64,000 bases of DNA from positions 1,306,492 through 1,370,491 of the forward strand of contig CAJINV010000012.1 of NCBI GenBank assembly GCA_905178155.1, in the 5' to 3' direction. The translations under genes and the position numbers were made by a program. The notes beneath the pieces were generated by a model. That model ran no database searches and was not told the DNA's origin. It saw only the letters and a list, made by a program, of their open reading frames with translations. Source of the stretch: Amoebophrya sp. A120 (Eukaryota > Protista > Dinoflagellata). Numbering within the stretch: the stretch's first letter is position 1; every line of letters begins with the position of its first letter. This document shows positions 18,552 to 60,500 of this stretch, in pieces.

Positions 18552-19409
18552 GTTTTTGTAGGTTCAGTTTCGGGAAGCAGAGGACCTTTTGTGTACGATA
18601 CCTTTTCGTCCCGAAGAAAACTGTCGTGTCGCAGGTACTTCTATCTTCAGAATCAAAAAACAGGAGATACTCGCGAAACAACTTCGTCCAAGTTCGAAAA
18701 TCAAAATCCTAGGACGACGTTCTTCTAGTCGAAATAAAAAACAAAACGAGAGGACATCACAACACGAAGTGCTATCACTTGTGGCGGCACGCGTAGGAAG
18801 CAAAAGACCACCGACGAAATATCGAAAAATACGAGGGTAAAGACCAAGACAAGCTGCACACCGCTTTCACTCTTGTTGTTCCCTCCCGGCAAGAACTCAT
18901 GCTCGTCTCGCTCACATTCCCAACGAATAAATCGATCCAAACGAAAAGCTCAAATAATTCCAACGAAAACGCAGGACGACCAACATCGGAAGATGAACTG
19001 AGATCGATTGCCGCCGTAGCCCTCTCCTTGGCGACGTGGGCGGAGCTACCAGGGCGGAAGTTCGACGACCCCATTGAGAGGATCTTCCTCTTTCAAATCG
19101 TAGTGAATTCTGACTTGCGTCTGTCTTTTCGGAGGTCGCTAGATCTTCATAATAAATTCGCTTCGGTGCTATTGGTGCTGCGCGATTCTACGCGGCGCAA
19201 GTACTTAGGTCGTTGGAAACAAAGAAAAGCTCAAGAACTTCGAGAATGTTAGCTGGTGGCCAGGTCGCTGTAATCAGAAAACTGCGGATGCTGAATCTCA
19301 TCTTCTGTCGCGCAACATTCTTGGTATTCAATAAATAGAGTTCTTCATCTGATCAACAGCGGCGTTCCCATCTTATGCTTGAAAACCTTCACAAGACCAC
19401 ATCTCTACT

Positions 19410-20197
19410 TCACTCCCTGGCAGCTCCTGCTCCACGACCGACCGCCGCATTGGCCGCCTCCCCTTCTGGCTGACTCGCATTTGGTGCGCTCGGGCCGCCC
19501 ACGCGACCACCCGTTTCCTCTCCTCGTTGGGTCGTCGTGTTCGTGTTTTTTATTCCGGAAGCAGGGGCATTATTGCTCTTGCCACCGCCCTTGGGAGAAG
19601 TTGTTTTCCTGTTTCCCCCTTTATTGCTCTTCGCTTGGTCGACACCGTTGTTCCGCCGTTCCTCGGACTCCGCTTCAGACTCGGACTCTGACTCGGATTC
19701 CTCTTCCTCCTCCCGTCGTCTCCTTTCCCGCTCCGCCGCGGCCTCGCGCATGCTGAGGAGTTCGTTGTTGGAGTTGTTTGTCATGCAGAGAGAGAAATGA
19801 AACTACGTGATTTTGTCCTCATGCTGTAGTATGCATGAACAACAACCAGAACAAGCTTTTATAGTTTTCAAAAAAATAATACCGATCCCTATCCGGCTTG
19901 CGGATGTAGGAGCAGACTGTCAGACCGTCCTCCTCCTGGTACATCATCTATCCAAGAAAAAAACGTTGTTAGTGTAAATTTGTGATGCGCACCATTCAAG
20001 CTGATTGCGTCTGTCATGCTTGGCATGCATCGTGGGGCTCATTAAAGGGCGTTTTCACGTAGTATCTGCGCATGACAGGTTTTTGCTGTCATGCGAGAGA
20101 TATTTGCCATGCTAATCCTCCAAGAAAGTTACACTTACACAGTTTTTTTCTTGCATATCATCGTGACCAGGTTCAGTATTCGGTGGAACATAAACAT
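19410..20197 (-). CDS. Small hypothetical protein (charged, low complexity)
   Basis: MFMFHRILNLVTMMYQEEDGLTVCSYIRKPDRDR-MREAAAERERRRREEEEESESE is in frame after removing element 19949-20157 and a GT-AG intron (~19755-19881). Confidence 0.5.
19949..20157. mobile_element. Introner, family F-like
   Basis: TATCCAAGAAAAAAAC...GTTTTTTTCTTGCATA; TSD TCATC. Confidence 0.8.
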
Positions 20198-27100: not shown

Positions 27101-29190
27101 TTGCGAGATTTGTCATGCTGATCTGGCATGGCCCTTAAATCTGTATTGCGTGGGGCCATCGAAACAGCCTTTCTCGCCTGTCATGCAACAACGCAGTTTC
27201 TCATGCGGAATACGCAGCACAGAAGCACGAAGCAACTTGTCATGCTTGGCGGCGCATTACAGTGCATTTGTTATTGACTGACTTGCATCGCAAGTTTCCA
27301 GACCCAGACATTTTTGCACTTGATAGAGCACTACAGGTTGCTCCCCCGCGTGCCCAACCACCTGGCGCACCACGGTCTCGCAGACGTATGGATTGCAAAT
27401 ATGTCTGGGTCTGAAAGGTTGCAACTTGTGATGCTGTGTTTGGATTCCAAAAAAAACTTGTATTGCATGACCAGCAACAGGTCGTGTCCAGTTCTTGCTA
27501 CGTGGAGAGGGCATTTCTCATGCGGAATAGGCATCAGGAATCCCTCTAAAAGTCTGTGATGCAGCTATATCGTGCATTACAGGCATTCTGGGTCATCCAA
27601 AATATGCATGACAAACCTGGCAATTTTCCAGACCCAGACATTTTATACATTTCATAAGGCGGCATCGACCGCGACCTTGAAGCTGCTCCCGTTGGTCGTG
27701 TCCCGGATGAAAGGCATGCGGAAAAAATTGTTCGCCTGATCTGGTGCTTCCTGCGTTTGAAAACCGGTAGTGGTGTACCTGTTTTTTTTTTTGATACCAC
27801 GACCATGAATGATCATAATAACAGTGACCGCTGAAATCACTGTTGTATTTCCATCGTGCACTGTGATAGTAATTGTTGTGATGCTATACTATGAGGCAAA
27901 AATAAACAAGTACTTACATCCCGCTTGTATGTTCAAGCGCAAAAACTACATGCTGGTCGAAACTACTTCTTCTACACAACTTGTCTACAACTACCCGCGC
28001 ATCTCGGAATTCTTGGTATTCGGGACGGTCAGTGTATTCGTCCTGTGGCCCCCGCTGCTTGTTTTTCTTGCCCCCTCACCGCCTCCCGTACCATCACCCC
28101 CTCCGCCCACGTCGAGATAGGTCCATTTGCGAAATTTATCGGCCTTTCGCACTGACGAATTCTCATAATTGTTGGTGCCCAGAAAGTGGAAAAACTTCTT
28201 GCCCATTTGCTGTGCTCGTTGTTCAGGATCATGGGCGGCTAGAGGAGGATTGTTCTGATTCATCTTCTGAGGCCTGTGGGATGATCCGGTAGTAGCACCG
28301 TAATTCGCCGTAGCAAACCCGTTATAAAATGCAAAAGTGTCTGGGTCTGGAAGAATGCGCGCTTTGTCATGCAGCTTTTCCATGACCCATGAGGTCTGGA
28401 ATGCAGGACCTAGCATGACAGATTCTGTGCGACCTCTCTCATGCCTATCCTGCATGAGAAACTCCCTTGCGACTTGGTCAAAACTGGACGACTTTGGGTA
28501 ATCATGCAACACAGGTTTTTGCATGCTCCAGATCTAGCATGACAAGTTGCATTCTTCCAGACCCAGACATTTTTACATTTGATACCCGTGCAATTTCTCC
28601 TGCATCAGATCATGCACTGCGTACGCCCGCCAGTGCTTCGGGTCACGTGGCACCCCGTCTCTGTTTACAACTGGTATGTGCCTGGTGTTCTCGTGATTTA
28701 TTGTTTCTTGTCCTGCTCTAGTCGTTGCGCCATTTGTATTTGTTGGACGACCCCTATAGGAATTGCTCTGCCCACCTACCGTGGTCCCCCCGCTGCCCGT
28801 CCCGGTCATAGTAGTCTTCTGGTATTTCATTCTGGGCCCCTGGGCGAGGGGGACCTGATTCATCGTTTGGCCCCCGGGCAAAAATCCATCTTGCCCGTGA
28901 TTTCTTTGTGGCGGTGACGGGAGTTGCGTGGGAGGCGCCGCCACTTGTCTGTTCGATTGAACATCTTTTCCGCCAGTACGGGAGTTCGGGTTGAAGCGAA
29001 AGGTCGGACGGGCAGCGGTTCCCGTTGCGGCTGTCTGTTTGGCATGGCCGGGGTTCTGCGGAAGTTGCGAAAATGACCCGGTACTATTTGTTCCATTATG
29101 CTGCAGATTCCTCGTCGGCGCAAATTCCTCATCCCACTGCGCAGCAGAAATCCCAAACGTGAAACCCGTTTTGGGAGGTACGCCCGCCAT
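21110..29190 (-). CDS. Nup96-like nucleoporin (Y-complex scaffold), divergent
   Basis: Continuous frame across 11 elements and GT-AG introns. Segment FAQWL...VFYCLLANDLQQACTVLL..FERLLQII..RKYMADQV..WDIYCLLAG..LTCWTLLAACYWY resembles the Nup96 domain (AC..A..RLA.LL..M..QL..W..Y.LLAG..LDW...GL.LWY). An upstream SSFKV motif is also present. Confidence 0.55.
21631..21801. mobile_element. Introner, family C (TIR TATCCCACAGAAAAAAGC.GGCAGG.CA.ATTTGTAATGCAAAA)
   Basis: TSD GGCGT. Confidence 0.9.
21901..22220. mobile_element. Introner, family B
   Basis: TSD CGCCT/CGCTT. Confidence 0.9.
22527..22676. mobile_element. Introner, family E
   Basis: TSD CTGCA; join reads VLSAAERDK. Confidence 0.85.
23559..23878. 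mobile_element. Introner, family B
   Basis: TSD ATTCG. Confidence 0.9.
24152..24402. mobile_element. Introner, family A
   Basis: TSD GTTCA; close sibling of 41191-41442. Confidence 0.9.
24471..24645. mobile_element. Introner, family C
   Basis: TSD GGAGT/GGAGC; the sense-3' terminal TA is mutated. Confidence 0.85.
25549..25761. mobile_element. Introner, family F (TIR TATCACACGAAAAA.GTGTTACAGTTACA)
   Basis: TSD GCGCC. Confidence 0.9.
26242..26553. mobile_element. Introner, family B
   Basis: TSD ACCTC; reverse orientation relative to 12408 and 23559. Confidence 0.9.
27069..27325. mobile_element. Introner, family A
   Basis: TSD GAGCA. Confidence 0.9.
27387..27656. mobile_element. Introner, family A
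   Basis: TSD AGACG/AGGCG. Confidence 0.85.
28323..28584. mobile_element. Introner, family A
   Basis: TSD CCCGT. Confidence 0.9.
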
Positions 29191-30104: not shown

Positions 30105-31995
30105 TCATTTTTTCGCGTCCGCGTAGAGGGTTTCGATGTGCTTGTCCACAAAGGTAGTGATCTTGAGAGGAAAAATCCCCCCACCCCATATCGAACAGGT
30201 ATGCTTCCGAAAATTTGCGTTGCTGATTTGAGGCCACAGATAGCGTCTGTCTTGCAAGAGGACAAGCGCAGAGGCTTCCCCGCCATTATGGAACCGATTT
30301 AGCATGCTGCTGGGACTAGGGGCCAGCCGTTTGTAATGCGAAACAACTAGGCCCAAACCCCCCAACCTAGGCTGAGGATCTGGCTGCGGTGCCGTATTGC
30401 AAGACAGCGCGCATTTGTGTACGGAAATCCAGCATCAGAAACTTCGTCTCGATATGGGGAGGGGGGATTTTTTCTCACAGTAAGTGAGCTTCGCGACGTA
30501 GTCCTCGTAATAAATCCGGTTCGTGTTGTTTCCTGAGAAAAAAGTGCTACCGTTACACACTCAGTTGCAGGCCAGGCAAGACAGACGAGCTCTGTCATGC
30601 CGGAAATGCATAGAAACCTCCTTTCACAGGTGTTTGTTTCCCCGTAGGATTTCCGCATGGCAAGTTTTCTCTCTCAGGTAGACAAATTTGTGTTGCTCAA
30701 TTGACTACAAATGTGTAACTGTAACACTTTTTTCGTGGGATATGTTGTTTGGGTCCCGGTCTTTTGCATACTCGTAAAACTCTGCCCACTCCTTTTCTCG
30801 AAACCCAACGGCGCCGGACCTCCATCCAAAGTAAAAACAACCCCACCCCGTAGTCAAGATGGGGAGTGATGATCCGAAACACAAAGTTACAAGCTTTGGC
30901 TGTCGTGCATGACAAGTTAGGGCTCGTAGGGGGTAGTCCTGCTTAGATAGTGCAACCGCATCACAAGTCCACTACCTCATCCTGATTCGAGCATGACAAA
31001 AACCAATCCCAATAAAACAGCATCAGAAAACGCTCCTCGTGGGGCTGCGCATAAGAAACATTTTAGACATGACAACTTGCATGACAACTCTGGAGTGGAA
31101 AGGTTTTTACTTGGCATAACCCCAGGTACTCTTTCATCTTGTCCACCTCGATGTACCCTTTTCCGTCTGGGTCCAAGACCTGGAGTTGTGTTCACACAGC
31201 ATTTCAAAATTCTGCTCCGCAAATTTCCCATGCGGAGGCAGCATAGCTGTTGCTCATTGTCATGCAAATGACGCATAAAACCGATTCTAGTACTTGTCTA
31301 TACCTTGAAAGCCGCGAGGAGTGTCTCGCTGTCGTCTGGATCGTATTCCCTTTCCATCAAACACCGGAGCATCAGCGCTATGGAAAAGAAGTAAATGCTG
31401 AGCCGCAACAAGTGGTCTCATGCAATGCGATACGCTGCTGGACCACGATCAAGTAGTACATCAGCATGGTGCAAGTTACTACGCGGATCTTCAGAAACAG
31501 AAATGCGACTTGAATAATATTGTCCGAAAGCGAGCCACAAGTTGTTCTGTCGATAAAGTGAAAGGTGCTAGTACAAGATAAACCACTCGACTCAGCAGTA
31601 CCTTGCTCGCATAATCTTCTCGAAAGCGTCATAGCTCACGACGTTAGACGGGTCGTCGTCCTGTGTATTTTACATTGTTTTTTCGGCACGGAAGATGTTC
31701 TGAATGAAATTCGTCTTGTCATGCAAAAAATCAAGTCACGAATCAATCTTCTCTGGTTTACCTCCATAAATCTCGCATGACAAACGAAGTCTTTTGAAAA
31801 CAACAAAAATGTAGGCACTACCTGTATCTCCCGCAAGATAACCTCAACCACGTCCTGTTCTGACGGGAACTGCCCCAAATATCGCATAATCGTAGCGACT
31901 TCCTCCTGTGTGACCGTGGCATTGCCTAATTTGTCGAAAAACCCAAAAGCCTCTCGAATCACCTTCCGGAGGGATTCCAGACGAGCTTGCGACAT
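30105..31995 (-). CDS. DRC8: Dynein regulatory complex subunit 8 / EF-hand calcium-binding domain protein 2
   Basis: IREAFGFFDKLGNATVTQEEVATIMRYLGQFPSEQDV..VSYDAFEK.MLRCLMEREYDPDDSETLLAAFKVLDPDGKGYIEVDKMKEYLGSGAVGFREKEW..NRIYYEDYVAKL. Calmodulin-like fold with DRC8-typical spacing; 4 elements and 2 GT-AG introns. Confidence 0.75.
30161..30482. mobile_element. Introner, family B
   Basis: TSD AGTGA; the sense-3' terminal TA is mutated. Confidence 0.85.
30529..30742. mobile_element. Introner, family F
   Basis: TSD TGTTG; the sense-3' terminal TA is mutated; join reads PNNTNRIYYEDY. Confidence 0.85.
30823..31118. mobile_element. Introner, family G (TIR core AAAAACG.CCCCACCCC)
   Basis: TSD ACCTC/ACCCC; the sense-3' terminal TA is mutated; join reads YLGSGAVGF. 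Confidence 0.8.
31379..31613. mobile_element. Decayed introner (singleton TIR TATG..GTA.TGCTGAG.CG)
   Basis: TA...TA; TSD diverged (sense AAGAT/GCGCT); in-frame join within DRC8. Confidence 0.7.
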
Positions 31996-43985: not shown

Positions 43986-44237
43986 TATGCATTGCAAATA
44001 TGTCTGGGTCTGGAAACTTGTGATGCTAAAAGTGAATGCGAGTTCCACTGCAGTGCGAAGCCAAGCATGCCAAATTTTTGGGCTCCTGTGTGTTGCGTGT
44101 TCCGCATGGCAAACTGCGTTTTTGCATGACAGGTAAGATGACCGCTGCGTGCCCATGCATCACAGATTCTTGAGTCACGTCAGACAAGCGTGACAAATGC
44201 AGCAATCTTCCAGACCGAGACATTTTTGCATTTGATA
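43986..44237. mobile_element. Introner, family A, host CDS not identified
   Basis: TSD CAGGG/CAGAG. Confidence 0.85.
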
Positions 44238-44724: not shown

Positions 44725-47700
44725 TTACTTGCTTTCTGCCCTCCGTTATGAACTGCAAAAATGTCTGGGTGTGGAAGATTGCCAGGTTTGTCATGCATAT
44801 TTTGAAAGACCCATGATGTCTGTGATGCATACTCTAGCATCACAGATTTTTCGAGGGCTTTGCGATGCCTCTCTCGCATGAGAAGTGTCCTCTCCGCGAA
44901 GCACAAACTGGAGTCCTCTTGCTGGTCATGCAATACTAATTTTTCTAGAATCCAAAGACAGCGTCACAAGTTTAGACTCTTCCAGACCCAGACATATTTG
45001 CCATTCATATCCGTTCATACAGCGCGCCCTCGGAACTGCTGGCACTGCTGCTCCTTAAGCCCCCCTGCTCCGCTATCAAGAAGAAAGATCCCCCCTCCCC
45101 ATATTGACAAGGCATGTTTTCAAAGTTTGTCTTGCTGATTTGTGGCGAGAAATCGCGTCTGCCTTGCAAGAAGGCAATTCCACAGACACCCGCCGCATTC
45201 TTGTGCAGGCGGTTTATCATGCTGTTGGGCCTACAGCGCAGACGCTTTTCATGCTAAGCGCCTAGGCCAAAGCCTCTCTACTCAGGCTTGATACGGGTCT
45301 GCAGTCCTCTCCAGCAAGAAAAATCTGATTTGTGTACGCAAATCCCGCATCAGAAACTTCGCTTCGAGCATATGGGGAGGGAATATTTTTCCTTTTGATA
45401 CTCGCGCGTCGTTCCTCTTCATCGGTCTGACACCGCACGTGCAGCCGACTCGCTTGCTTTCGCAACACCCGCGTCGCTTCGGCCATGTCCGCCGCCAAGT
45501 CTTCCGCGCCGGGCAGGGATTTCGCGATCACGTCGACTGCCCGCTTCAGGAGGAACCAAAATTGCATTCCCTTCTCCAGGTCCTGCACGGGTTGCACACA
45601 GCACTGAAAGTTTTCCTCCAGTTTTCCACGGAACTCCGTTACGTCGCCCTCGTAGGTGAGAAAGAAGTTGCAGATGATCCCCAAACACGCGCGTGGGAGT
45701 ATCGCTACAGAAAGAAAGGGCTAGCACTTGTAATGCAAAAATACGCACACAGAAAGATCTGTCATGGGGAAGCCCATCGGAAGATAGATGCTGTGTGCCT
45801 TGTGTAGTCATTTTTGCATTACAAATAACATGCTAGCGCCTTTTGTCTGGGATAGGAAGCGGGAACGCCGGTAGCAACGCGGGGTACTGCAGGTGGTTAT
45901 CCGGTGCTAAAGTATCGCACTCGTATATTAAATGCAAGTCTTGCATTACAAATTTTTTTCTGAAGGTAAATCCGTATTACAAATCTTATCTCTCATGCTG
46001 AGGAAATTTGTAACGCATTTATACGAGTACGATACTTTTGCAGTTCCTAGTGGTTTTTCCGATCCTGCGTCACGCACATGAAATCTTTCGGTAGCTGGTT
46101 TGTGAACTCCAGCTGCGGCAGGAGCAGGGACGCGAGGCAGCTTTCGGACAGCTGCCGCAGGGACCGCTTCAGGATCTTTATCAGGGTGTGAAACCCCGCG
46201 AGGTCAAAATTCACGTCCGAGTTCCACATATCGTTGCGCAGTTTTGGCTATCACGTTGAAAGAACACGCTGTACCCGCGACCCAACTGTGGTCAAGGTGA
46301 GTAAAGACGAACTACTTCTAGGGTAGTACTCAGCTGCACAAGGCCGAAAACTTTCTGCGGCGCTCTGAAGATGTCTCCACAGCGAAATCGTCCTTAGTTA
46401 GCATGATGGGTCGTGCATGACAAATCCACTGTCCTTTGCTGATGAGAGCACGACAACTGCAAAAGCAAGTAGAAGGGCAAGGTGCGAACTATCAAATGCC
46501 TCTCGTGGTCGTTCTCATGCAGGATTTTCCCGCATGAGAAACTTATCGCACATATGAGGATTTGCATGACAAGCTTTATGGGGTGGGTAAGTACGTTCTT
46601 TCTCAACAGGGTAACATCGGCACCAGACTGATTACCCGGTTGATCAGGATGTGCGACTTGTAATCCGGGTGCTACTATGCATTTTCAAAAAGAAGCGCTT
46701 CTATCGCGAGCGCCGTGCAATATCAAACTTGCAGCTGCGAAGATGAATTTTTGATGTCTCATGCAAGTACACTGCCTAAAGAAAAATTTATTTCTCATGC
46801 AACACGGCTGCGGCAAGGCAGGCGCGAAGACGCAGCTTCTTCCCAAGCGTATTTTTGGTGGGTATTCAGTTTGCGACGGAAACGGTTTTTCGGGTACCGC
46901 GGGCTCCTATGGATGGCAAATATGTCTGGATCTGGAAGATTGCAACTTGTCATGCTACATTTGGATTCTACAAAAATCTGCTTTGCATGAACAGCAAAAG
47001 AGGTCCAGCTTCTGCCACGGCGAGAGGGCGTTTCTCATGGGGTATAGGCATCAGGAAGCCGTCACAAAATCTGTGATGCTAGGGCATGCATCACAGCCAT
47101 CACGAGTCATGCAAAATGTGCATGACAGACCTTGCATCCTTCCAGACCCAGACATATTTGCATTTGATAGCTCCCACGTTTCGCCAGACATAACCCCGAA
47201 CTTCATCAGCTCCAAAGCAATGAGGGCGGGCTCGATGAACCTGATAGCGTCGATGGCGCGATTTTTTGTCATGCGAAACAGAGAAGCGACGCTCCGTAGA
47301 TGTTGTCATGCAGAATTCACAACTACACAAACGTGCTACAGTCAGACAGTCATCCTGTTCAAGGCCGGTCTGCTATAGTTTTTATCATTCTCAAAAACCT
47401 CTATACTCCTTCTGTTCGATATCCTGGAGCACATTTCCCAACACTATCCTGTGCAAAAGCATCGCACTCGTACTAGTTGCAGTTATGCATGACAAATTTC
47501 CTTTGCACGCTAAAATAGCATGACAAAATCCATTTTTCATGCTGAGTATGCAATTTATACTAGTACGATGGTTTTGCAATGCATAAACACCGTCATGCCG
47601 CCGTTGGGGCTGAGGAGGTCCAAATTCTCCAAAACCATGAAGTGGCAGTAGGCGGAGAGAGTATTTTTGTCCGCTTCTGCCAGGTATCAAATGCAAAAAT

Positions 47701-50700
47701 GTCTGGGTCTGGAAGATTCCGGAATTTGTCATGCTAGTCTGGCATGACTCTGAACTCTGTATTGCACGGCCGCGAAGAGCTCCTACTCCCTGTCATGCAA
47801 AAACGCTGTTTCTCATGCGAAATACGCAACTCAGAACCATGAGAAAAACTTGTCATGCCTGGCAGCGCATTACAGTGAGCTCACTACTGCCTTCCTTCTT
47901 GAATCACAAGTTTCTAGACCCAGAATGACATATTTGCATTTGATACCGGGAGTCTCAACTTGTAGTCACTATTCCTCGGCATCAGCAAGCCCTCGCGCTG
48001 GTCCTTCTGGCCGTTTTTCGTTGATGCTTGTTTCGAGGCGGCTTTACCCTGCTTGTTCGCCGCTCCAGCCTCCTCCTGCAGGTGCACGTGGTTATCCAAC
48101 AGAAACGGAAAGGTCGCACTTTTGTAATGCAAAAATGAATACACGAACAAAATCTGTATTGCACATCCGAAACAGTACGCTATGGGGTCACCTATAACAT
48201 ATGTGTCGTGCTTAGTTTTGCATTACAAACGTGATCGGTTAGCGTTTTTCTGTGGGATAGTGCCACTTGAGGCAGAAAACGAAGTCCACCGCGTTGGTCT
48301 TTTGCCGCATCGTTTTATCCCACAGAAACGCACACCCAGAGCACCATCTTTTTTATATCTTCTACGAAAGTATAGCGGCTTCTGTCTGTGTTATTTCCGC
48401 ATTACAGTTGTCTCCACGCATGTTGAATGTGCACAGGTTTTCGTCCATCTTATCAGCATGATCACAAAGCTTAACTTTTTTACTGTGCGAGAAATAAGTA
48501 CTTTGTGCCCGAAAAACATCAGCAACTCAAAGCTCTTGCGTTTTTTTTCTAGGTATTCATAGGTGTGCTTTATTTTTTTCTTTGCATACATCTCCAGCTT
48601 CACCTCCTCCTTGGTAAAGCTCCACTTCATTGGCTCCCGCAGCTCGGGGGAGAGAAACTGTTATCATATGCAAAAACGCACCCACCCCATAGTCAAGTTG
48701 GGAACGTAGCAACACAAGTCCAGAAGTTTTGGGAGCCACGCATGACAAGTTGCAGTCCGTAGTGTAGTGCATGTTAGCAAGGACAGCCGCATCCCAAATC
48801 CATGTGCTTATCCTGTTTGCAGCATTACAAATGCCGTTAACACGGTTGGAAATGCCTCCCTTGGGGACGCGCATTGCAGATGTTGCTGCAATTGCAAATC
48901 TGCATGACAGCGCTGGGGTGTTTATGTACTGGAAAAGACCAAATTTAAAGCACAGAGAAATTTCGAATTTTCAGAAAGGAATCGAGAGGAGAACGAACTA
49001 CGACAAGAAGAGAAACGCATATGCTATGTGGCCACTGTAATTTATTTATTTAGTGACAGCGCTGGGGTGGGGACGTTTTTAAACAGGATAACTGTTCCTC
49101 ATTGCTCATTTGAATCTGCTGCTGCAGCACCGCCTGTTGCTGGAGCAGGGCTTGGATCTTATACCAGTGCACAACTACTCCCCCTCGTTCTCATTTCTCA
49201 TGCAAAATACCAAATCCACGCTTTCCCTCCTGTCACTATTATGCATGACAAATTCTGGTAGCCCAAATAGCACTACACTCCAGCGATAAAAATCTGTCAT
49301 GCAAAACCGGCACTCTTGCTGATGCTTGTATTGCCTGATTCACGCTATACACATAAGGGAGAGCAGCAGGGGGAGTTGTGCAGTGTGATAGATCTGCGCG
49401 GGGTTGTACAGAGTCGGGTTCGATTGCGCTTGCGTCAACAGCATGGAATTCTGCTGGAGCTGCAAAATCTGCTGTTGCTGAAACTTCGCGGCGGACAGGT
49501 GCCAGTACGCCTTCATGGTGATTCGCTTGGACTGGAATTTGGGGTGCAGGTGCCGCGCGATCAGGCCGAGCGCCCGCTGCCGGTAGTCCTTCAGGTCCAG
49601 CAACAGCTCCCGGTACTCCTTGATGTCCAACAGGGGCTGAGATTTGTCGTACCAGACCCCCCGGGCGAGGGCCAGCGGAAGCTTGGAAGACACGATGCCC
49701 TCGCAGATCAGCTTGTACAGGCTGTTGGGCAGCATCTCGCCAATCACCGCCGAAAAATCGTAGGGAATCTGGTATTTTTTTCAAATTAATACTTATGAAA
49801 AAATATAGCAATTTATTCGTGATTTTTTGTCATCCTCAACTTAAAATTCACCTTCACGCGAGTCGTGGGTCGTGTAAGTAATAAAAGAGAAAGGCGCAGC
49901 TCCTGGGTAAATAATGTGTAGTTGCTGGTCGTTGTGTAGTATCAACTGCAAAAGTGTCTGGGTCTGGAAGATTGCAACTTGTCATGCTGTTTTTGGACTC
50001 TAAAACAATTTGCATTGCATGACCAGCAAGAGGAGCGCAAGAATTTGTGCTACACGGACAGGGCATTTCTCATGCGGAAGGTGCATCAGGAAGGGTTCTA
50101 AAAATCTGTAATGCTAGGGCATACATCACAGACAATCATGGGTCTAGAGAAATATGCATGACAAATCTCGCATTCTTCCAGACCCTGAAATTTTTGCATT
50201 TGATATGTAGTGGTACCTTTATCAGCTCCAGGGATTCGTAGTCGTCTTTTTCACTCACGTCCCCATTCCGATTGCCGTTGACCGCCTGTTATCCAGTGCA
50301 AAAGCATCGCACTCGTAGTACTAATTGCAATTATGCATTACAAATCTTCATCCCAAGGTGAAACAGCATGACAAATTCCATTTGTCATGCTGAGGGAATT
50401 TCTAATGCAATTACTACTTGTACGATGCTTTTGCAATTCATATCTGTCGCAAGGTGCTTTTGTTGACGCACTGCGACAAGGCCATCACCGAGTTGGTTTG
50501 TACGTTCCACACCGGCCCGTGCTTTATCAAAACCTTGCAGGTGCAGTACCCCTCGATGTGGTCGTTTTTCATCTCCTCCGTTGTATCGCAAAGAAACAGC
50601 AGGCTGCAGCTGCATAATATATATGCTACGTTCTTTATTCTCATGCAAAAATGATCACTGCACAGATAAATCTCCTGTCCTAGGAGCTTTTACGCATCCA

Positions 50701-52672
50701 ATATTTGCATGTATTACAAGCAGAACTCTGCCAACTCTACTTTTCTGTACGATACGTCGGAAACGTTTCCAGCCAGTTCACCAGCGGGGCGTGCTTTATG
50801 ATCACCACTGCGGCCTCGAAGTTAAAACGCGAGTTGCCGCCGATGTTCTGCATGGCGTTGCTCTGCTGCTGTATGTACTGGTCCTGGTTCAAAAAGGGGT
50901 AGGTGAGGCAGTACTCCGTTCCCGCCAGCATGCACGCATCCACGAACTGCGGCAGGGTGATTTGCCACTTGTTCAATATTACATCGAGCCCGAGCCAGTC
51001 GAAGGTTTGCTTGCCGAAATCAATGTGGATGACGCACTTCTCGATTCCGTACAGAATCTGTATGACAGTGCAGCACAAGAACCCCCGCCCTTGCGCTCCC
51101 TCATTCGTCATGCAAAAAGCCAAATTTTGAACTCTGACCCTTTTGACGATGAGGATGATGGCCGTGTTTCCATTACAAGTTCCTTCTAGATGAGCAGCCC
51201 AAACTGCACTACTGTTCGGGCCGTGCTGTGGGTTTGTCATGCAGTAGAAGCATGCATCCTTTCTGTCACTCCTGCTGCTCGTCCAGAAGATGTTGCCCAA
51301 ATAATACGAAGGAGGGAAGTACAAAAGTTCTTGTGCACTCTGATAAGCAGCCCGGGCGGCCCGTATCCCACGAAAAAAAGCTGGCAGGTCATATTTGTAA
51401 TGCAAAAATAAATAAATACACAAAAAAATCTGTATTGCATATCCGAAACAGCATGCTAGGGGGCCGCCCATGGCAAGTTCTTCTGTGTATTTATTTTTGC
51501 ATTACAGATACGCCCTGCCAGCTTTTTTCTGCGTGATAGCCCGAACACGCTGTTAATCAGCCCCTGTTCGGCGAAGTGGGCGAGCTGCGCACCCGCAAAG
51601 TAGGGCGCTTGGAAGCAGTCGTAATTTTTTGCCTTGAGGTATGACAGTGCACTACCCCCCCTTCCCCTCATTTGTCATGCAAAATACCCAATCCACCCTT
51701 GGCCCCTTGGCATTGTTTGCATGACAAGTTCTGGTAGCCTAAATAGCACCACAATCCAGTGTAAATCTGTGATGCAAAACCGGCACTCTCTCTGATGCTT
51801 GTATTGCCACTCATGCTATACAAATGAGGGGGAGGGGGAGTTGTGCACTGTCATATCAGGTGGTGGTAGAGAAAGTAGACAAAGTCCGAATTTATTCGAC
51901 TGGTGGACACCGCAAAGCACTTCTGCGCCTCGGAACGCTGGCCCTTCGCGAGGCAATTCCACGCGCGATCCATTTGCGAGTCCAGCCTGATAAAGAGGTT
52001 CTTGACAGTGTAGTAAATTCAAGGTTCTATAGCAAGGAAAAAGTTCTTTGTCACGCTTGGATAGGACAGCGTCAACTACATATGCCCATGCGTAGTAAAC
52101 GGACTGGTTTCCAATAAAAGCAAAGTACTAAAGTACATCCGTTCTTATTATACCTGTGTATGTACATCTGCTGTTGTGCCGGCGGGGTCATTCCTTGAAA
52201 CACAAACAGCGGCTTTATCCCTTTCCTCTCGAAGTTCTGCAGCTTGGATATGCAAAGTACAAAAGTGGGGCTCTAAATTTCGTGCCAGTTTTGGCGAAGT
52301 TGCATCACAAGCTACGTGACCTTGATTTTTTGACATGCGCGGAATGCTAGGCTTGTCCTCTTGCGAATAAGATCATGCACCGCACAACTAGTAAACTTGT
52401 GTGTAAAAAAGATGCACCCGTAGTAGAATATTTTTCATCCCGAAGGACCGACCCCCTTGTTCTTTTGCAGCTGTGATACCCTTGTCCACAAATCCGAATA
52501 TTCCGGGTGGCACGCCCCCAATCGCGTCGGCAAAGGGGTCCTTGAGCGCCTGAATTGACCGCAGCCAAAACACTGCGTCAATGCCCATGCGGAAGCCGGA
52601 CAGCTTCCCCAGCTGTTCTTGCTTGATCATGTGCTGATCCGAAAGGTGGGACTGCAGGTGCCGCACTCGCAT
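44725..52672 (-). CDS. MKT1: MKT1 homolog (XPG/PIN-like post-transcriptional regulator)
   Basis: N-terminus LSGFRMGIDAVFWLRSIQALKDPFADAIGGVPPG; APYFAGAQLAHF..FGPPGLLLYG; FVDACMLAGTEYC; IPYDFSAVIGEMLPNSLY; C-terminal MWNSDVNFDLAGFHTLIKILKRSLRQLSE..PRACLGII..DLEKGMQFW. Contains 19 elements plus GT-AG introns. Confidence 0.8.
44747..45009. mobile_element. Introner, family A
   Basis: TSD TCCGT. Confidence 0.88.
45074..45400. mobile_element. Introner, family B
   Basis: TSD TCCGC/CTCGC. Confidence 0.85.
45700..45854. mobile_element. Introner, family C (diverged)
   Basis: TSD GGGAG/GGAAG; join reads FPLPRACLG. Confidence 0.8.
45898..46049. mobile_element. Introner, family E
   Basis: TSD GTGGT. 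Confidence 0.88.
46249..46613. mobile_element. Decayed introner (TIR TATCACGTTGAAAGAAC..TACCC)
   Basis: TSD lost (sense GATGT/GCCAA); in-frame join LVPMKLRNDMW. Confidence 0.7.
46676..46851. mobile_element. Heavily decayed introner
   Basis: Weak TIR (TA.GC.T..AAGAAGC); TSD lost; in-frame join YPPKHPDYK. Confidence 0.5.
46908..47169. mobile_element. Introner, family A
   Basis: TSD GCTCC. Confidence 0.9.
47445..47585. mobile_element. Introner, family E
   Basis: TSD AACAC. Confidence 0.88.
47685..47945. mobile_element. Introner, family A
   Basis: TSD CCAGG/CCGGG. Confidence 0.88.
48093..48259. mobile_element. Introner, family C (diverged)
   Basis: TSD GTGGT/GTGCC; join reads FCLKWHVHL. Confidence 0.8.
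48316..48588. mobile_element. Introner, family C2 (diverged)
   Basis: TSD CGTTT/CATCT; join reads KLEMMRQK. Confidence 0.7.
48662..49090. mobile_element. Introner, family G, with a nested insertion
   Basis: TSD ACTGT; join reads NEEQFLSPE. Confidence 0.88.
48921..49053 (+). mobile_element. Short retroposed insertion (TPRT-like) inside an introner
   Basis: 133 bp flanked by a perfect 16-bp direct repeat TGACAGCGCTGGGGTG (48905-48920 and 49054-49069), ending in an (ATTT)n tail. Confidence 0.7.
49160..49390. mobile_element. Introner, family D
   Basis: TSD GATCT. Confidence 0.9.
49940..50205. mobile_element. Introner, family A, apparently inside a GT-AG intron
   Basis: TSD TGTAG. Confidence 0.88.
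50290..50442. mobile_element. Introner, family E
   Basis: TSD CCTGT/TCTGT. Confidence 0.85.
50584..50754. mobile_element. Introner, family C-like (decayed)
   Basis: TSD CGTTG/CGTCG; join reads TFPTEEMKND. Confidence 0.75.
51061..51345. mobile_element. Introner, family D-like (diverged)
   Basis: TSD ATCTG/AGCAG; join reads PPGLLLYG. Confidence 0.75.
51364..51538. mobile_element. Introner, family C
   Basis: TSD GCCCG. Confidence 0.9.
51640..51855. mobile_element. Introner, family D
   Basis: TSD TGAGG/TCAGG. Confidence 0.9.
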
Positions 52673-55600
52673 CTTGCCTTCGCTTTGTCGTGGATTTCTA
52701 CTTTATTTTCCTGTTCGACGATCCCAGCACGAAGGCCGCAGGTAGCGGCAGAGTCGTTCTTGCGCACCACGACCACGCGAGAAAGTTGTGAGAAGCGTCT
52801 GCCGCCCCCGGTCGAGAGAAAATCTGCGTCAAAAGCTTCGTGCTCGCTACGGGAGATTAGTTTGAGAAGCGTGCGGCGCGATCTTATTCCCCGAACCGCT
52901 GTTGCCACGTACAGGGAATAAACCTGAGACGGTTCTTAGACAAGTACAATCTCGGGAACAAAAAGATTCTTGTTTATTCGTCGGTCCTGACAGTAGTAGA
53001 GCCCGAATCTTTATCTTCCCATACTGGACGCTTGGCACCGCAAGTCTCGACGCCGCACTTTCGACCTTCGCTGTTCGGAGAAAAGTCTTTCCACCCGAAG
53101 CTGCCTCGAAGTTTTCGCCTGCTCTCCCCGACGACAATCTCCAACCGCGATCGTTGTTCTGCCCGGAGACGTCGTTGACGTTCTACTTCCCGCTTGTTTT
53201 AGTACTCTACTTGCATCTTCTTTTTATCCGGACTAGTACTTCTATGTTCTGTTCTCACCAGCGGCGCGACCTCCCGGAGTAAATATTCGATACGGAAGAG
53301 CGTTGTCCCGCCGGCGCGGGAGATGTGCTCGAAGTGTGTTGTTGAATTGTGGTACTCGCCCGTCTTGATTATTCTTGCAAGAAGATTTTGAATTTGAAGG
53401 GACTCAGCGCCTTCTCGTGGGCCCCCTTCGACGACGTCCAAAATAAATTCGTACGCGGCGACATGTATCGTCAGCAAAAATAAAACAGCGCGGTCGTACA
53501 AATTGTATATTCGGCAGATCGTGGTCAAAGCTACTTCTCAGGTAGATGGTAGCTAAATTTGCATTAAACCAGCACGCTTCGTTTTTCCGTTACAAGTGAA
53601 GTCTTTGTACGAGCGCAATAGTACTGGTTTTGCGGTGCATAAAGCGAGCTACTCGCGAATTCGGCGCTGCCGGCAAAATGGAGGCGTATCGCTGCTGCTT
53701 GATGCTGTTCGTGTAGTGATGAAGCAGTCTTCTATAATTTCGAGACAAAGCTGCACTTCCGCAAAGTTCCTGGCACTAGCACGCGCAAGTCTCTTTTCAA
53801 CCGCGCCGCGAGGGCGGACCTCCGGCCCCTTGGCTCGCGGTCGTCGCGGTACCCTCCCTAGTTGTGCCTCCCGTCGATAAAAAATAGGCGCTTCGAAGAA
53901 AGGTTGGGCGACTGCTTCTACCGGGCGCGGAAAACGAAAGCCATGCTTTTCTTCTGCATTTTTCCACGTCTACTTCCCGGGTAGCAACGGAAACAGCACT
54001 TGGCCCCTCACATACTTTCTTGTTTTTCCGGCTAAGTACTTGGCTTAAAAAACTCTGTATCACGTCGTGGGCTTGATTTCTATTACTTTTCTATAGCCCC
54101 ACGACACAAGTGCGGGCCTAAAATAGACCGCCTACTGAGATCGATTCCCCGGTCTAGGGTTTTGTAGCAGTTCGACTTTTTGTGGACATAGCTATGGATA
54201 TCAAAAACTACTTGGAAATGGTACAATAGGTGAAATGGCGAAGAAAAAACCAATGGGGCAAAATAGTTTCTAACTTCTTTTTGTCTTTCCGGCAGCTCAA
54301 AATGGTCAAAAGCGGCAAGCAGTGCAGAGGAAAAAAAGTCGTCTTCTACATTTGTTGCACCCCGGATGAGCAGGGCTCGGTTCTTGTGTTGGTAAATTTA
54401 CCACGCTGCAAACATTTAGTATGTTTTATTGGAATGAGAGATTCGGAACATTGATCGCGCGACGAACACCGATGCGATGAAAATGCCGCGCAACTCACAT
54501 CCTGTGAGATGTCGTAGAATCGAATGCGTCGTAGCGTGGAGCGAGTGCTATACTCTCATTTTTGTTTTCTGAAGGGATACGGGCTCGGTCGTTCCAACCA
54601 AGAGCAGCGCGGTGCCAGAGTAAACATAATTTCGTAGGGATCCAGAAGCACCTCTGTCAATGCGTAGCTCGCGGTAGCTCGCGGTAGCTTGCGGCGCCAA
54701 GAAGAATGATCGGGCGAGCGCGCCGTTCGGTGTAGCTCACCAACACCAGCCGAAGCGCCCAATCGAGCCACTCCCGCGGCACCTTTCGAAAAATCCCGAA
54801 AAGCCGCATCCGCCTGCGCGAGCACGACTACAGACACCGCCGCCGGGCGATTTGCCTGTGGCTGCGCGCCCTCTTTCTATCCGCCGGCGCCGATCTGATC
54901 GGCCCTTGCAGTATAGCGCGAAAAATCCCAGGCGCCGCACGCGGTCGGGCTGCAATGGATAGGCCGCGGGGCCCGGCTAAAAGTAGCGCGGACCGAAGGC
55001 ACGGGCGCCCGCTGATTTTATGCCTCCCCTTCCGCGCAGGCGGCCAAGGCCGCCCCTGCGAAAGTGCGGAGGAGCGAGAGGGCGCCCCCTTGGTTTGTGT
55101 GCCTCTATGCTGACCACGCAAGCCGATCCCGCCTGGGATAGGATAGGAAGGGTCCCAGCTTAGTGGAGAGGGGGGGGGGGGGATGCGACTGCCCCACCTT
55201 GATCGACGGAGGCCAATGGTCACCCCATAAGATAAGATGGCCCACCCCTGGAGGGCTGGCTGAGTGGTTTTCTTGATTTTAGAAAAATTCTACACAATGC
55301 AAAAGCGTCAGAATTCTTTGACTTAGCAGCTGGAAAGAGCATGAAGGAAACGCACCCAAGTCATCTTTTCTAAGTACGATAGGCTAGAAGTTCAAAGGTA
55401 TTCACCAGATAAGTGAGTTTTCAAAATTTTTGTTTTTTACAATTTTTGGAAAATTACAAAGATACCGCCATAGTGGATTCCTTTGGCTCTTACAGATCAA
55501 GAGGGGGAGCCCAAATACAGATTAAGCATTGCACTGCGGAAAGTCGAATCATATTTCTCGAATAAGTTATCACACAGACATTTTTTAAAAAATTTTCCGC

Positions 55601-57530
55601 TTTGACAAATTTGTAAAAAAATATCCTAATTGCAACCAATCTTCATTATAAAGCATAGCACTTGCTTCGTGATTTTGATAAGCAGGATATTTGCGCAGTG
55701 TTTTACTGTGTAAAGTGGCATAATTTCCACAATTTAACATTTTTTAAAAATTTTAAAATTTTTGAAATTCAGAGAAAATCAGCGCGATAGCTTGTTTTTG
55801 GCTTGTACAAGCCACAAAATAAAAACTGGGCGCCAATTATTTAATAATTACGGGAGTAAAGCTGTATACTAAAACTCTTTTTCAGGCAAGAAATTTTTTA
55901 GATTTTTTTGGTATTTTTCGAGGTCGTCTTGTAGGTGCTAAAAATTACGGCCGTGACTTGATTTCCCTAGGCGAAAAAAGTAGAAAGACACAAGAACATA
56001 GATTTTCCATGTTTTACAAAGAGATCTGACCACGTTGTAACGAGTTACAACGAAGATCACAATTTTTTAAAAAAATAACTTGAAAGGAAAAATGGCAAAC
56101 ACTGGCCCACATTTGGAAATGAGGTTAATACATGTGGCCGCATTTTGTGTTTTGAGCTTTATGCTTGGTCTTCTGAAGGCGATGGATGCAGTGTGTGTAA
56201 TGTGTCGTCGTTTTTGCACAAAATATAAAGAGAAAACACTTCTTTCATCCGCGCATTCACTATTGGCCCAGTGCGAGGCCCCTTGCGTGTCCGATCGCCC
56301 TTGCTAGGTCATCAGATACCCCTTGGACCAGCAGGGCCCTGCGCATTACCTACGAAAACACCATGCCAAAATCCCGAAAATGCGCTGGGATCGCGGGCCT
56401 GAAGGACCCGGGTCCGGGCCCGCGTCGCCAAGGCCTCCGCCTTGTCGATCTTGTTCGGGAGGGGCGCAGCGTTTCCCTTGCGCGACGTGGTGCCCAATGG
56501 CTTCCCTGCTCGGCGTTCGGCTTGCCCCCTGCCCCGCCTCCACACAGGGAGGAGAAACTAGCCGGGCGGCGCGCGCGCGCGCCGGGGGGCCCCGCGCGAG
56601 ATGATGCCACTTTCCCGCATGGCGCAGGCCCGACTCCGGCCCGGGTTGCCCGGATGCGCCTTGCATCGGCGGGCGCCCCGCGTTGCTCTTCCTCGCGGAG
56701 TGGATCTGCGGGGGCCGCCGCGGGGTCGGCCCGCTGGAAGGGGCCGCGATAAAGACTCGCCGCAGCGGAAAACCCCGCGGGCTTTCCAAAATTAAAGAGA
56801 GGCCGGCCTGTGCTGATCTAAACGGCCTCGATTGATCACCCCCCGGGCGTGTTTTACGAGAAAGCCGACGCCCCGCGCGGGTAGACCCGCGCTCATTAAG
56901 CCCCGTGCGCACCCGCGAGCACATGGGCTTCATCTGCGAAGAAGATCTGTCGAAGTCTCCTGTAGCCGGCAGGTTTGCTATTTCCACAAAAACACGAGAT
57001 CCTGCAGCTGAAAGTGTGCCTAACTAGTGGCTGAGCGACGTTCTTCTATTTTCGAGCGGCTTCATTTCGCTTTCTGACCGCCACTCTCTGCCCTCTTCAT
57101 CAACACATTTTATCGAGCTTTTACATCAACACAGCGACGCACCTAGCTTTGATCACCAGTAGGTTTTTTTTTCAAGGTCGCCACCGCTTTTCGCTTTCAG
57201 GCGAGCAGGAAAATATGAAAAAAAATGATTGTATCCACGAGGATCTGACCGGTAGCTAAGTCTGAAGACCTGTAATAAATAAACTGTAGTAGCAAAAAAT
57301 GCCTCACACTTGTAAAGACCCGCGACGGCAAAATTTAAAAGATTCTCCGTGGCCACACTTGAAATAATTAACTACCCCCCGTCCTCCGAGCAATTGTTTC
57401 GCCTTTTGTAGTTCGTCCGCCCTCCTAAACAACAACAACTCATAATCCACCCCACGTAGCGTTGATTTCTACTTCGTTTATTCCATCAGCAAAATAACTC
57501 CCCCTCGCTTTCTGAATCATAGCAAAAAAG
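52673..57530. promoter_or_regulatory. Divergent strand-switch region between the minus-strand gene run and TOP3B
   Basis: No recognisable CDS or introners; GC-rich blocks (~54690-55260, ~56270-56930) flank an A/T-tract-rich core (~55260-56240); poly-G at ~55170-55182. Regulatory function is inferred only. Confidence 0.4.
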
Positions 57531-60500
57531 ATGCCGTCCGGCTATCAGAAGCAGGTGCTGATGGTGGCGGAGAAGCCGTCCATTGCGGAAGCCTTAGCCA
57601 ATGCCCTCGCGGAGAACAAATCGAAGATCACAAAATCGAAACGAACCAGCCCGGTGTCGCCCATCTTGGAATTCGAGGGCTATTTTCCCTTCATCAAGAA
57701 GGGCCAGGAAAAGGTGTGGATCAAAATCACTTCGGCCGCGGGACACGTGTACAAGCGGGAGTTTACCAAGGAGTACTTGGACCGCAGGCAGCACCCGCCC
57801 ATCGTCCTCTTCGATGCCACCACGGAGCACTTGGAGGCCAACGGCAAGGCGCGCATGTATTGACAGGAAAAATCCCCCCTCCCCATATGGAAAAGGTATG
57901 TCTCCAAAAATTTGTATTGCGGATTTGAGGCCACAAATCACGTTTGTGTTGCAAGAAGACAAGGGCAGCAGCTCCCATCCCATTATGGAGGCGGTTTGTC
58001 ATGCTGTTGGGCCCAAAGGGGGGCCGTTTGCCATGCTGAACTACTAGACCCATACGCCCCTACCTAGCCTGGGGATCTGGCCGCAGTGCCTCTCTGCAAT
58101 ACAAAGCTGATTTGTGGCCACAAATCAGCATCACAGTTTTCCGTTTTCATATGGGGAGGGGAGATTTTTCATTTTGATAGCATGCCGGCCCACTTCAAGC
58201 AGGAGGCGAAAGACTGCAGCTACCTCGTGCTTTGGCTGGACTGCGATCGCGAGGGAGAGAACATCTGCTTCGAGGTGATGCGGTCCGCGGTCAACATGGC
58301 GGAGGACGAAAACAGCCGGCTGATTCCGAAGAAGCGGGTCCTGCGCGCGATCTTCTCGGCGTTGGACGAAAAATCGCTGCAAGAAGCGTATTGGGGCCTT
58401 TCCGGCGACGGGCCCAACAAAAACGAGTCGGACGCGGTGGAGGCGCGGCAGGAACTGGACCTGAAAATTATTGTGAGGAAAATTCCCCCCTCCCCATATC
58501 GAAAAGGCGCGCTTTTCAAAATTTGTGATGCTGATTTGTGGTCACAAATCGAGTCTGTCTTGCACGAGGGCAAAGCCCGAGCCTCCGCCGCAATTCGCCG
58601 GCGATTTGTAGTGCTGCTGCGCCAATGGGGCAGACGTCTGCCATGCTAAGCGCTGATCTCAAGCCACCCCTTTCCGGGCTTTGCATCTGCCTGCAGTGCT
58701 CTACTGCAAGACAGAGCTGACCTGTGTACGCAGATACAGCATCACAGACTTCCCTTTCGATATGGGGCGGGGGGATTTTTCATTTTGATAAAAATCGGGT
58801 GCGCGTGGACGCGGTTCCAGTCCCAGTTCTTCGCCGGACGATATCGGGATTTGGACGCGCAACTAATCAGTTACGGACCCTGTCAGACCCCAACCTTGTG
58901 GTAAGCATGAAGTGAGATCAGTTTGAAACTGGAAGAACTTTGGAAGGCGAAAGAGCGGTGTGCCGTTTTTCTTTCGCGCCGTCCATAATAAGTACAGAGC
59001 GCGCATCAACAGCAGTCGGCGCTTGCGTTTTTTTCGCCGGGCCGGGAACCCCTAGAAAAGCGCACTGCTTTAGTCCCGTCGACGCGCACTGCGTATTTAT
59101 TAGTCCTTGGGTGCGCACTACTTAAGCCCATCTCGCACTACTTAAGTCCATGTTCGCGCACTACTTAAGCCTTTTGCGCACTGCTTAAGTCTTTCGCGCA
59201 TTACTTAAGCCTTTCGCGCACTGCTTAAGTCTTTCGCGCACTACTTAAGCATTTCGCGCACTGGCTCAGCCCTTCGCGCACTGCTTAAGTCTTTCGCGCA
59301 CGACTTAAGCCCGCCTTCGCGCAGTATTTAGACCCCCCGCGCACTACTTAAGCGCTGCGCCCACAGCTTGACTCGTTTTGTCTTCTTTGCTTCTCGCAAA
59401 AGCATGAAGGAAGATCTTGTTTCGCATGACAACAATAAAGTTTCGATCAAAACGACCCAGGTTCTGCGTCCAGCGGCACGACCAGATAAAGAGCTTCAAG
59501 CCGGAGAAATTCTACCACCTGAGCCTGAAAATCAAGGTCCAGTCGCTGTTCGAAAAGATGATACTGAAGCAGAAGCAGATTGACCCGCAGAAGCGAACGC
59601 CGAAGAGCATCGCGCTGTTTAACAAGTACGAGTTTTTCAAGCAGCAAAACCCGCAGATCAACCGAACGGGCATGCAGGGGGTGGTGAAGGACGAAACAAT
59701 AGATATCCTCAGCAAAAACGTCCCCAAGACCCCAGAGTTGTCATGCAGATGTACAATTACAGAAAACGTTTGTAATGCGCAGCTCCATGATGAGTAGAGG
59801 CATTTCCGGTCGTGTTTTTGAATTTGAATGCTGTAAACAGGATGAGAAAATAGCTTTCGTGTGCGGCTTCCCCCGCCAACCAGCACTACACTGCAGAGCA
59901 GGAAGACTTGTCATGCACAGCTCCCAAAACTTGGAGACTTGTGATGCTAGATTCCCAAGTAGAACTTGGCTATTGATTGGGTGGGGACGTTTTTACATAT
60001 GATAATCGATTTGGAGTGGACGAAGGGCCCGCTGTTTTCCGCCGAAGTGGTTCAGGGGTTCAAATCCATGCTCGTGAAAAACTTCGTCTCCTCCGCCCAC
60101 GTATCAAATGCAAAAATGTCTGGGTCTGGAAACGTGTAGTGCTGCGTTGGGAATAGTGAATGCTCTGTAATGCACAGCCAAGCATGAGAAATATCTGCGC
60201 TTCTTTGTGTTGCGTTTTTCGCATGACAGGCTGCGTCTTTGCATCACAGGCAAAAGGGTCTCTTCTTGGACACGCATCACAAGCTTTTTGGTCATGCCAG
60301 ACAAGCATGACAAACGTGCATTCTTCCAGACCCAGACATTTTTACATTTGATACCACGCGGGTGTCCCCCGCGGGAGCGTCACGAGTGGGGGCAGTAGCT
60401 CTTCCACCAGCAGTTGTGCCTCCAGCACGACAAAGTCCCTGCAGTTAGAAGTGACCACCTGCAGTCGCAAAGAGGGCGTGCAGCAGCGACCACTCGGGAT

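What the first reader, a model, noticed from the sequence alone, without database searches (positions are those of the whole stretch)
19755..19790. Shared GCATNACAA(A) motif across introner families and in canonical introns
GCATGACAA, GCATCACAA, GCATTACAA and their reverse complements recur, often several times per element and in both orientations, across families with otherwise different sequence. The motif also lies upstream of canonical AG acceptors: ~25 nt before the acceptor near 19755, at ~59423 before 59460, at ~31260 before 31180, and at ~31720. It is scarce in long exons. Its core TNAC fits the yUnAy branch-point pattern. Inference: it is either an orientation-proof branch site or splicing-factor site, or an array of binding sites for one shared transposase, or both.
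Basis: partly seen in the sequence, partly recalled or inferred. Interest (0 to 1): 0.78.

Follow-up and report, generated by a model that had tools for sequence, protein, structure and literature searches.

The report
Strand-blind DNA motif, not branch point
A 9-base motif fills the transposon-made introns of a parasitic dinoflagellate equally on both strands, with copies spaced by whole DNA turns, so it is likely a docking site for a DNA-binding protein that moves these elements rather than a splicing branch point, although intact copies also persist, unexplained, in some short ordinary introns.

Summary
The motif is real: GCAT[G/C/T]ACAA occurs 119 times against 2.8 expected. 102 hits lie in TAT…ATA introners of an Amoebophrya A120-type genome and 10 in GT-AG introns. 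RNA-like contigs confirm the focal intron 19753-19882, with the motif's A at -29.

The branch-point reading fails. In 324 introners with an assigned strand, sense and antisense sites number 753 and 799, with mirror-image distances to the two ends. Four of 20 confirmed introners have no sense site. In 62 plain GT-AG introns, 5 have a sense and 5 an antisense site at -15 to -45.

A double-stranded DNA site fits better: spacing has a 10.5-bp period, conservation ignores strand, and sites decay after insertion. Best reading: internal binding repeats for a shared mobilising protein, not identified here. This scan found the motif and its phasing before on other DNA of this genome.

New here are the strand tests and a residue: short canonical introns keep intact, mostly G-variant sites without any element trace.

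The parts
19753..19882 (-). Focal 130-nt GT-AG intron; no TAT…ATA or duplication trace recognised
   Evidence: joint 19752>19883 in X1 and X2, absent in X5
19778..19786 (-). Perfect G-variant motif, sense to the transcript, central A at -29 from the acceptor
19833..19842 (+). Degenerate inverted copy of the motif (one extra base) in the same intron
   Evidence: sequence; pairs with the sense copy in the predicted fold, z -0.85, not significant
19949..20157 (-). Neighbouring TAT…ATA introner with 5-bp duplication and several motif sites
31180..31303 (-). GT-AG intron of a probable EF-hand gene (label recalled; no Pfam hit for its first exon); motif at 31257-31265 sits at -81
   Evidence: reading-frame continuity; motif position
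31661..31821 (-). GT-AG intron with an outward-pointing motif pair (31716-31724 and 31775-31783) inside an extended inverted repeat, the layout seen in introners
47241..47406 (-). GT-AG intron with two sense motifs at -29 and -66
   Evidence: joint 47238>47405, read as CT..AC with the cut moved 2 places
48662..49090 (-). Introner with six motif sites, all antisense to the transcript, yet spliced
   Evidence: joint 48655>49090 in X1 and X4; sites
53466..53641 (-). Old introner with no motif site on either strand, yet absent from the transcript contig
   Evidence: adjacent contig pieces 52480-53460 and 53642-54337 (table 8)
58901..59460 (+). GT-AG intron of a topoisomerase III-type gene; motif 59424-59432 at -32; 20-bp tandem array inside
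   Evidence: PF01131 hit
61902..62018 (+). GT-AG intron whose only perfect motif (61945-61953) is antisense
28323..28584 (-). Typical 262-bp introner: sites point outward near both ends, repeated 31-32 bp further in
52311..57995 (.). Largely intergenic and UTR stretch (includes first exons of two genes and one old introner) with no exact motif; control

Best explanation
The motif is repeated inside TAT…ATA introners equally on both strands, at fixed distances from either end and with whole-helical-turn spacing, and it is likely a double-stranded-DNA binding site for the still unidentified protein (transposase or its cofactor) that mobilises these non-autonomous elements. Shown: enrichment, strand symmetry, geometry, conservation within families, decay after insertion, and splicing without a sense copy. 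Inferred: that a protein binds it; that binding serves transposition, with several sites on one helix face gathering subunits at the ends; and that families share it because they share the mobiliser, as they share TAT ends and 5-bp duplications. Copies in GT-AG introns and UTRs would be remnants of older insertions. Splice sites are set by the element ends (one base before TAT, four after ATA), not by the motif.
For: Strand: sense 608 vs antisense 647 in 255 elements from related loci (p 0.28) and 145 vs 152 in 69 window elements (p 0.73). Sense distances from the 3' end and antisense distances from the 5' end share peaks at 35-36, 43-47, 66-67 and 74-79. Polar families lie 83 vs 97 relative to transcription (p 0.33); a family with all six sites one way lies 11 vs 8. 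Motif mismatch per base is 0.094 when sense and 0.097 when antisense, against 0.206 outside the motif. Same-direction spacing has best period 10.5 bp with 44 of 177 at 31-33 bp. Among loose superfamily representatives, 9 of 23 show the 31-33 spacing against a null mean of 1.9, maximum 7 in 2000. Private substitutions are 2.9% in motifs vs 7.3% elsewhere in 288 copies with intact duplications. The extra divergence in 86 copies with damaged duplications is +1.5 vs +1.9 points, i.e. about neutral after insertion. Precedent: transposase binding to short subterminal repeats in Hermes (PMC10368747, passages) and the Emigrant MITE (PMC1636448, abstract).
Against: No binding was tested, and no transposase was found (0 of 93 ORFs scanned with Pfam, a small sample). 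Farhat et al. report no transposase in A120 and argue against general transposase mobilisation (PMC7789003, section 16). Plain GT-AG introns hold 20 exact sites against a background of 1, with little decay tail (1-mismatch 33 vs 19.7, 2-mismatch 159 vs 153), 17 of 20 G-variant (p 0.003) and no duplication or TIR trace; neutral remnants should look more eroded. The interval on the post-insertion decay difference (-1.6 to +0.7 points) leaves room for some host selection. Sites also fill element interiors, not only the ends.
Confidence: 0.65

Rival explanations
1. A host double-stranded-DNA-binding protein reads the motif as a strand-independent intron or chromatin mark that would aid co-transcriptional splicing. 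Introners spread in exons because they carry it, and short canonical introns keep it under selection.
For: Exact sites occur in 12 of 31 plain introns of at most 180 nt vs 3 of 31 longer ones (p 0.016). They are intact, G-rich and without element trace, and 4 of 8 same-direction spacings are 32-33 bp. Density is 1.2-2.9/kb there vs 0.19 outside genes and 0.06 in exons. U1 snRNA was not detected in A120 (PMC7789003), so an unusual intron-definition route is expected.
Against: 35 of 62 plain introns have no site. Introner 53466-53641 has none and is spliced, and 4 of 70 window elements have none. Motifs decay after insertion about as fast as other bases. 48 of the 62 plain introns are model predictions without RNA support.
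Confidence: 0.2
2. The motif is the branch site, made orientation-proof by being present on both strands.
For: Three window introns have a perfect sense site at -29, -29 and -32, inside the 21-34 range of human branch points (PMC2367711, passages). Among 56 strict GTA…YAG introns, exact sites at -15 to -45 are 3 sense vs 1 antisense. Many symmetric families put a sense site at -39 to -51 whichever way they insert.
Against: 136 of 324 introners have no sense site in their last 60 nt and 32 have none at all. Of 20 RNA-confirmed introners, 6 have a sense site at -15 to -45 and 4 have no sense site. There is no orientation bias in polar families and no extra conservation at the 3' sense position (0.089 vs 0.070). 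Exact sites in plain introns are 6 sense vs 14 antisense. Position -3 is a purine, and position -1 is A in 0 of 119 and 18 of 1181, although A is the base of the UACUAAC that pairs with U2 GUAGUA (PMC2367711).
Confidence: 0.05
3. Inverted motif copies pair in the pre-mRNA and fold the intron into a hairpin that brings the splice sites together.
For: Outward-pointing pairs are complementary, and they pair in the predicted folds of introns 19753-19882 and 31661-31821.
Against: Neither fold beats shuffles (z -0.85 and 0.12). Polar elements have no partner copy and are spliced (48662-49090). Pairing needs no fixed sequence across families and no 10.5-bp period.
Confidence: 0.07

Closest known systems
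Amoebophrya sp. A120 introner elements (Farhat et al. 2021, PMC7789003; Gozashti et al. 2025, PMC12130899)
   Same: Non-canonical introns with inverted repeats starting TAT, then an A run, short direct repeats, many families, about 150-330 bp; some GT-AG introns share the layout.
   Different: In the parts seen (abstract, passages, section 16 and supplement text of Farhat; passages of Gozashti) no shared internal motif, spacing rule or fixed cut offset is described. The supplement's figures are images and were not seen.
Subterminal repeats bound by transposases: hAT Hermes BED domain (PMC10368747), pogo-like Lemi1 on the Emigrant MITE (PMC1636448)
   Same: A short motif repeated inside the ends in both orientations and, for Emigrant, on non-autonomous elements moved in trans.
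   Different: Here the motif is 9 bp, shared by dozens of otherwise dissimilar families, spaced by whole helical turns and spread through the interior. The duplication is 5 bp, and no binder is identified.
U2-type branch point yUnAy / UACUAAC (PMC2367711)
   Same: Contains TnAC; a few copies lie 29-35 nt before an AG.
   Different: No strand or 3'-end preference, dispensable, purine at -3, A avoided at -1.
Fritillaria borealis non-canonical introns (PMC13326754, passages)
   Same: Mass non-GT/AG introns; A-rich intron 3' ends.
   Different: There U1 and the U2 branch-recognition sequence are conserved and U2AF paralogues explain the change; no shared internal DNA motif appeared in the passages seen.

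Membership tests
U2-type branch point | Acts on the transcribed strand only | tested here: not met
   753 sense vs 799 antisense in 324 introners; 17 vs 24 in 62 plain introns
U2-type branch point | Concentrated about 21-34 nt upstream of the 3' end | tested here: not met
   5 of 62 plain introns have a sense site at -15 to -45, and 5 an antisense site; introner peaks are mirrored at the 5' end
U2-type branch point | Present in introns that are spliced | tested here: not met
   4 of 20 RNA-confirmed introners have no sense site
U2-type branch point | yUnAy consensus | tested here: inconclusive
   UnAy fits; -3 is A; -1 almost never A
U2-type branch point | Pairs with this organism's U2 snRNA; lariats map to the A | not testable with these tools
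   A120 U2 sequence not in the supplement text; no Rfam hit in the window; raw-read runs X7 and X8 barely map
Subterminal repeats of TIR DNA transposons | Host element has terminal inverted repeats and a target duplication | tested here: met
   285 of 419 related elements have a perfect 5-bp duplication
Subterminal repeats of TIR DNA transposons | Short motif repeated at set distances from the ends, both orientations | tested here: met
Subterminal repeats of TIR DNA transposons | Conserved while the family is mobile, released after insertion | tested here: inconclusive
   2.9% vs 7.3% in young copies; extra decay 1.5 vs 1.9 points with a wide interval; intact sites in plain introns point the other way
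Subterminal repeats of TIR DNA transposons | Bound by the element's transposase | not testable with these tools
   no transposase among 93 ORFs scanned; needs a binding assay
Amoebophrya A120 introners | TAT-start inverted repeats with an A run, short direct repeats, removed from mRNA without GT-AG | tested here: met
   the organism itself is inferred from these features

The most novel reading that the evidence does not exclude
A U1-less eukaryote marks introns at the DNA level: a host protein binds this motif on double-stranded DNA in either orientation, in short canonical introns as well as introners, and couples it to splicing. Dozens of transposon families became harmless introns by carrying that mark, and the same sites may also serve their mobiliser.
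Probability: 0.15. Interest if true: 0.85.

Novelty: new variant of a known kind. Interest (0 to 1): 0.45.

Why it matters
How A120 introners move and how they are spliced without GT-AG and without a detected U1 are both open. A shared 9-bp site with a spacing rule is a direct bait for finding the binding protein. Ruling it out as the branch point means that the branch signal of these introns must be sought elsewhere. If the intact sites in short canonical introns are under host selection, intron recognition through DNA would be a new mechanism.

Tried and rejected
No whole genome was held. No listed holder is on record as RNA, so X1, X2 and X4 count as RNA only by their intron-free joints. 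Raw-read runs X7 and X8 laid only 13 and 72 partial reads, so no lariat test was possible. The viral collection gave 0 matches, and Rfam gave none in the window. Pfam found no transposase in 93 ORFs: 86 of 161 long ORFs from the loci and 7 window pieces. No other branch-like motif stands out at -45 to -10 in 62 plain introns; only A/C-rich words do. A GTAT donor does not predict motif presence (p 0.44), and motif-bearing plain introns show no more duplication or ATA trace than others. Candidate introns 122-373 and 17871-17993 were left out of the plain set as unverified. No orthologous insertions were available, because the related loci do not overlap the window. RBFOX-type UGCAUG and ApiAP2-type TGCATGCA (both recalled, no call) were considered and dropped, since half of the sites have C or T at position 5. 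Paper searches. The whole-word search for the two motif 8-mers gave 3 unrelated papers; papers outside the held library were not covered.

Full report
Setting. The window is intron-rich eukaryotic DNA. Removing 70 elements that begin TAT or TAC, end ATA or GTA and are flanked by 5-bp duplications, plus GT-AG introns, restores long reading frames, among them a 957-aa topoisomerase III-type protein. These features match the introners of Amoebophrya sp. A120 (PMC7789003: abstract, passages, section 16 and supplement text seen), so the organism is inferred to be A120 or a close strain. Contigs of runs X1, X2 and X4 join exons across these elements (each table shows only 15 joints). One cut offset fits all 19 joints tested, and 3 joints force it: one base before TAT and four after ATA in transcript sense.

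Observation. GCATNACAA occurs 119 times against 2.82 expected, never with A at position 5; the wider consensus is GCAT[GCT]ACA[AG]. 102 hits are in introners, 10 in candidate GT-AG introns and 7 elsewhere. The focal site 19778-19786 lies in intron 19753-19882, which is joined as GT-AG in X1 and X2 but not in X5, with the A at -29.

More data. A pattern scan of metagenome contigs gave 150 loci of one related assembly with the same families, up to 95% identical, and no overlap with the window. After de-duplication these are 491 kb with 419 elements; on the window the detector found 56 of 70, and 56 of its 58 calls were true. These loci were chosen by one family's end plus a motif, so that family is over-represented. 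A gene model trained on the loci put all 14 window gene pieces on the right strand but recovered only some canonical introns exactly. A strand could be given to 255 of the 419 elements; 164 were dropped, as was one 1.1-kb window element.

Branch-point test. Sense and antisense sites number 608 and 647 in the loci and 145 and 152 in the window. The sense distances from the 3' end mirror the antisense distances from the 5' end. 136 of 324 elements lack a sense site in their last 60 nt, and 128 lack an antisense site in their first 60. Families whose sites point mostly one way lie 83 vs 97 relative to transcription. Motif conservation is the same on either strand (0.094 vs 0.097 mismatches per base), and terminal sites are no better kept when they fall at the 3' end (0.089 vs 0.070, p 0.41). 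Old or singleton elements show no strand bias either. Of 20 RNA-confirmed introners, 6 have a sense site at -15 to -45 and 4 have no sense site; 48662-49090 has six sites, all antisense. For GT-AG introns I kept 48 of 117 predicted from the loci (63 passed the flank filter, 61 the length filter, 13 were element-like) and 14 from the window. In these 62, 5 have a sense and 5 an antisense site at -15 to -45, and the totals are 17 vs 24. The motif also fits the human consensus only in part (PMC2367711, passages). The general branch-site reading is therefore rejected; occasional use is not excluded.

What the geometry says. With one representative per family, same-direction spacings have best period 10.5 bp and 44 of 177 fall at 31-33 bp; outward-pointing sites have best period 10.1 bp from the nearest end (its Rayleigh p-values are inflated by relatedness). 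With 47 looser superfamilies, 38 carry a site, and 9 of the 23 with two same-direction sites show the 31-33 spacing against a permutation mean of 1.9 and maximum of 7. A period near the B-DNA turn, indifference to strand and fixed distances from both ends point to a protein on double-stranded DNA. I took the idea of testing helical phasing from earlier notes of this scan and tested it here. Private substitutions hit motif bases at 2.9% against 7.3% elsewhere in copies with intact duplications, and the extra divergence of older copies is about equal for both (+1.5 and +1.9 points, difference -1.6 to +0.7). This suggests constraint during mobility and release afterwards. Such arrays are known from Hermes (PMC10368747, passages) and the Emigrant MITE (PMC1636448, abstract). 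The binder is not identified: 93 ORFs gave no transposase family, and Farhat et al. found none in A120.

The residue. Plain GT-AG introns hold 20 exact sites against a background of 1, at 1.2-2.9/kb against 0.19 outside genes, 0.06 in exons and 11.3 in elements. These sites show little decay tail, are G-variant in 17 of 20 against 52% in elements, sit mostly in introns of at most 180 nt (12 of 31 vs 3 of 31), are 6 sense vs 14 antisense, and come with no duplication or TIR trace. Half of their same-direction spacings are 32-33 bp (4 of 8), and intron 31661-31821 keeps an introner-like inverted layout, which suggests descent from old insertions. Their intact state, however, suggests retention. 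These are small, partly post-hoc counts on mostly predicted introns. A host role cannot be essential, since 35 of 62 plain introns and spliced elements such as 53466-53641 lack the motif.

Verdict. The motif is a real, shared, helically spaced DNA site in known introners, most likely serving their mobilisation (0.65). A host DNA-level mark is the main rival (0.2), an RNA hairpin role (0.07) and a branch site (0.05) are unlikely. I found no description of it in print in searches or in the passages read (PMC7789003, PMC12130899, PMC9860276, PMC12005148, PMC13326754). The supplementary figures of PMC7789003, including the U2 alignment and the example elements, could not be seen and may bear on this. 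The scan has reported the motif before on other DNA of this genome; the strand and canonical-intron tests are what this window adds.

Noticed in passing
window, 19 RNA joints in 12040-20157 and 44741-49391: Only one cut offset fits all joints: the intron starts one base before TAT and ends four bases after ATA, whatever the dinucleotides are.
   Followed up: yes
window 12910-13996: An introner carries an insert of about 0.8 kb shortly inside its first motif, with a short tandem repeat at one end and about 5-15-fold depth in run X5. It is still spliced out whole, and 298 bp of it recur in L134. It may be a retroelement.
   Followed up: partly
62 plain GT-AG introns (window and loci): The tract before CAG is A/C-rich and G-poor rather than a polypyrimidine tract, and most donors start GTA.
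   Followed up: partly
window 17085-17743: Six exact G-variant sites in a 3'-UTR-like stretch; one old TAT…ATA element is likely at 17222-17416.
   Followed up: partly
window 49769-50216: A GT-AG intron holds a nested introner (49940-50205) that starts 11 nt after the donor.
   Followed up: partly
window 59110-59364: A 20-bp tandem array lies inside the 560-nt intron of the topoisomerase gene.
   Followed up: no
window 43986-44237 and 53466-53641: Introners in apparently untranslated regions are also absent from transcript contigs.
   Followed up: partly
window 9096-9838: A 743-nt GT-AG intron lies between two similar copies of a short coding stretch (about 9055 and 9843).
   Followed up: no
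window 55300-56200 and 56350-56950: An AT-rich block followed by a GC-rich block between two divergent genes, not covered by the RNA-like contigs; a possible regulatory region.
   Followed up: no
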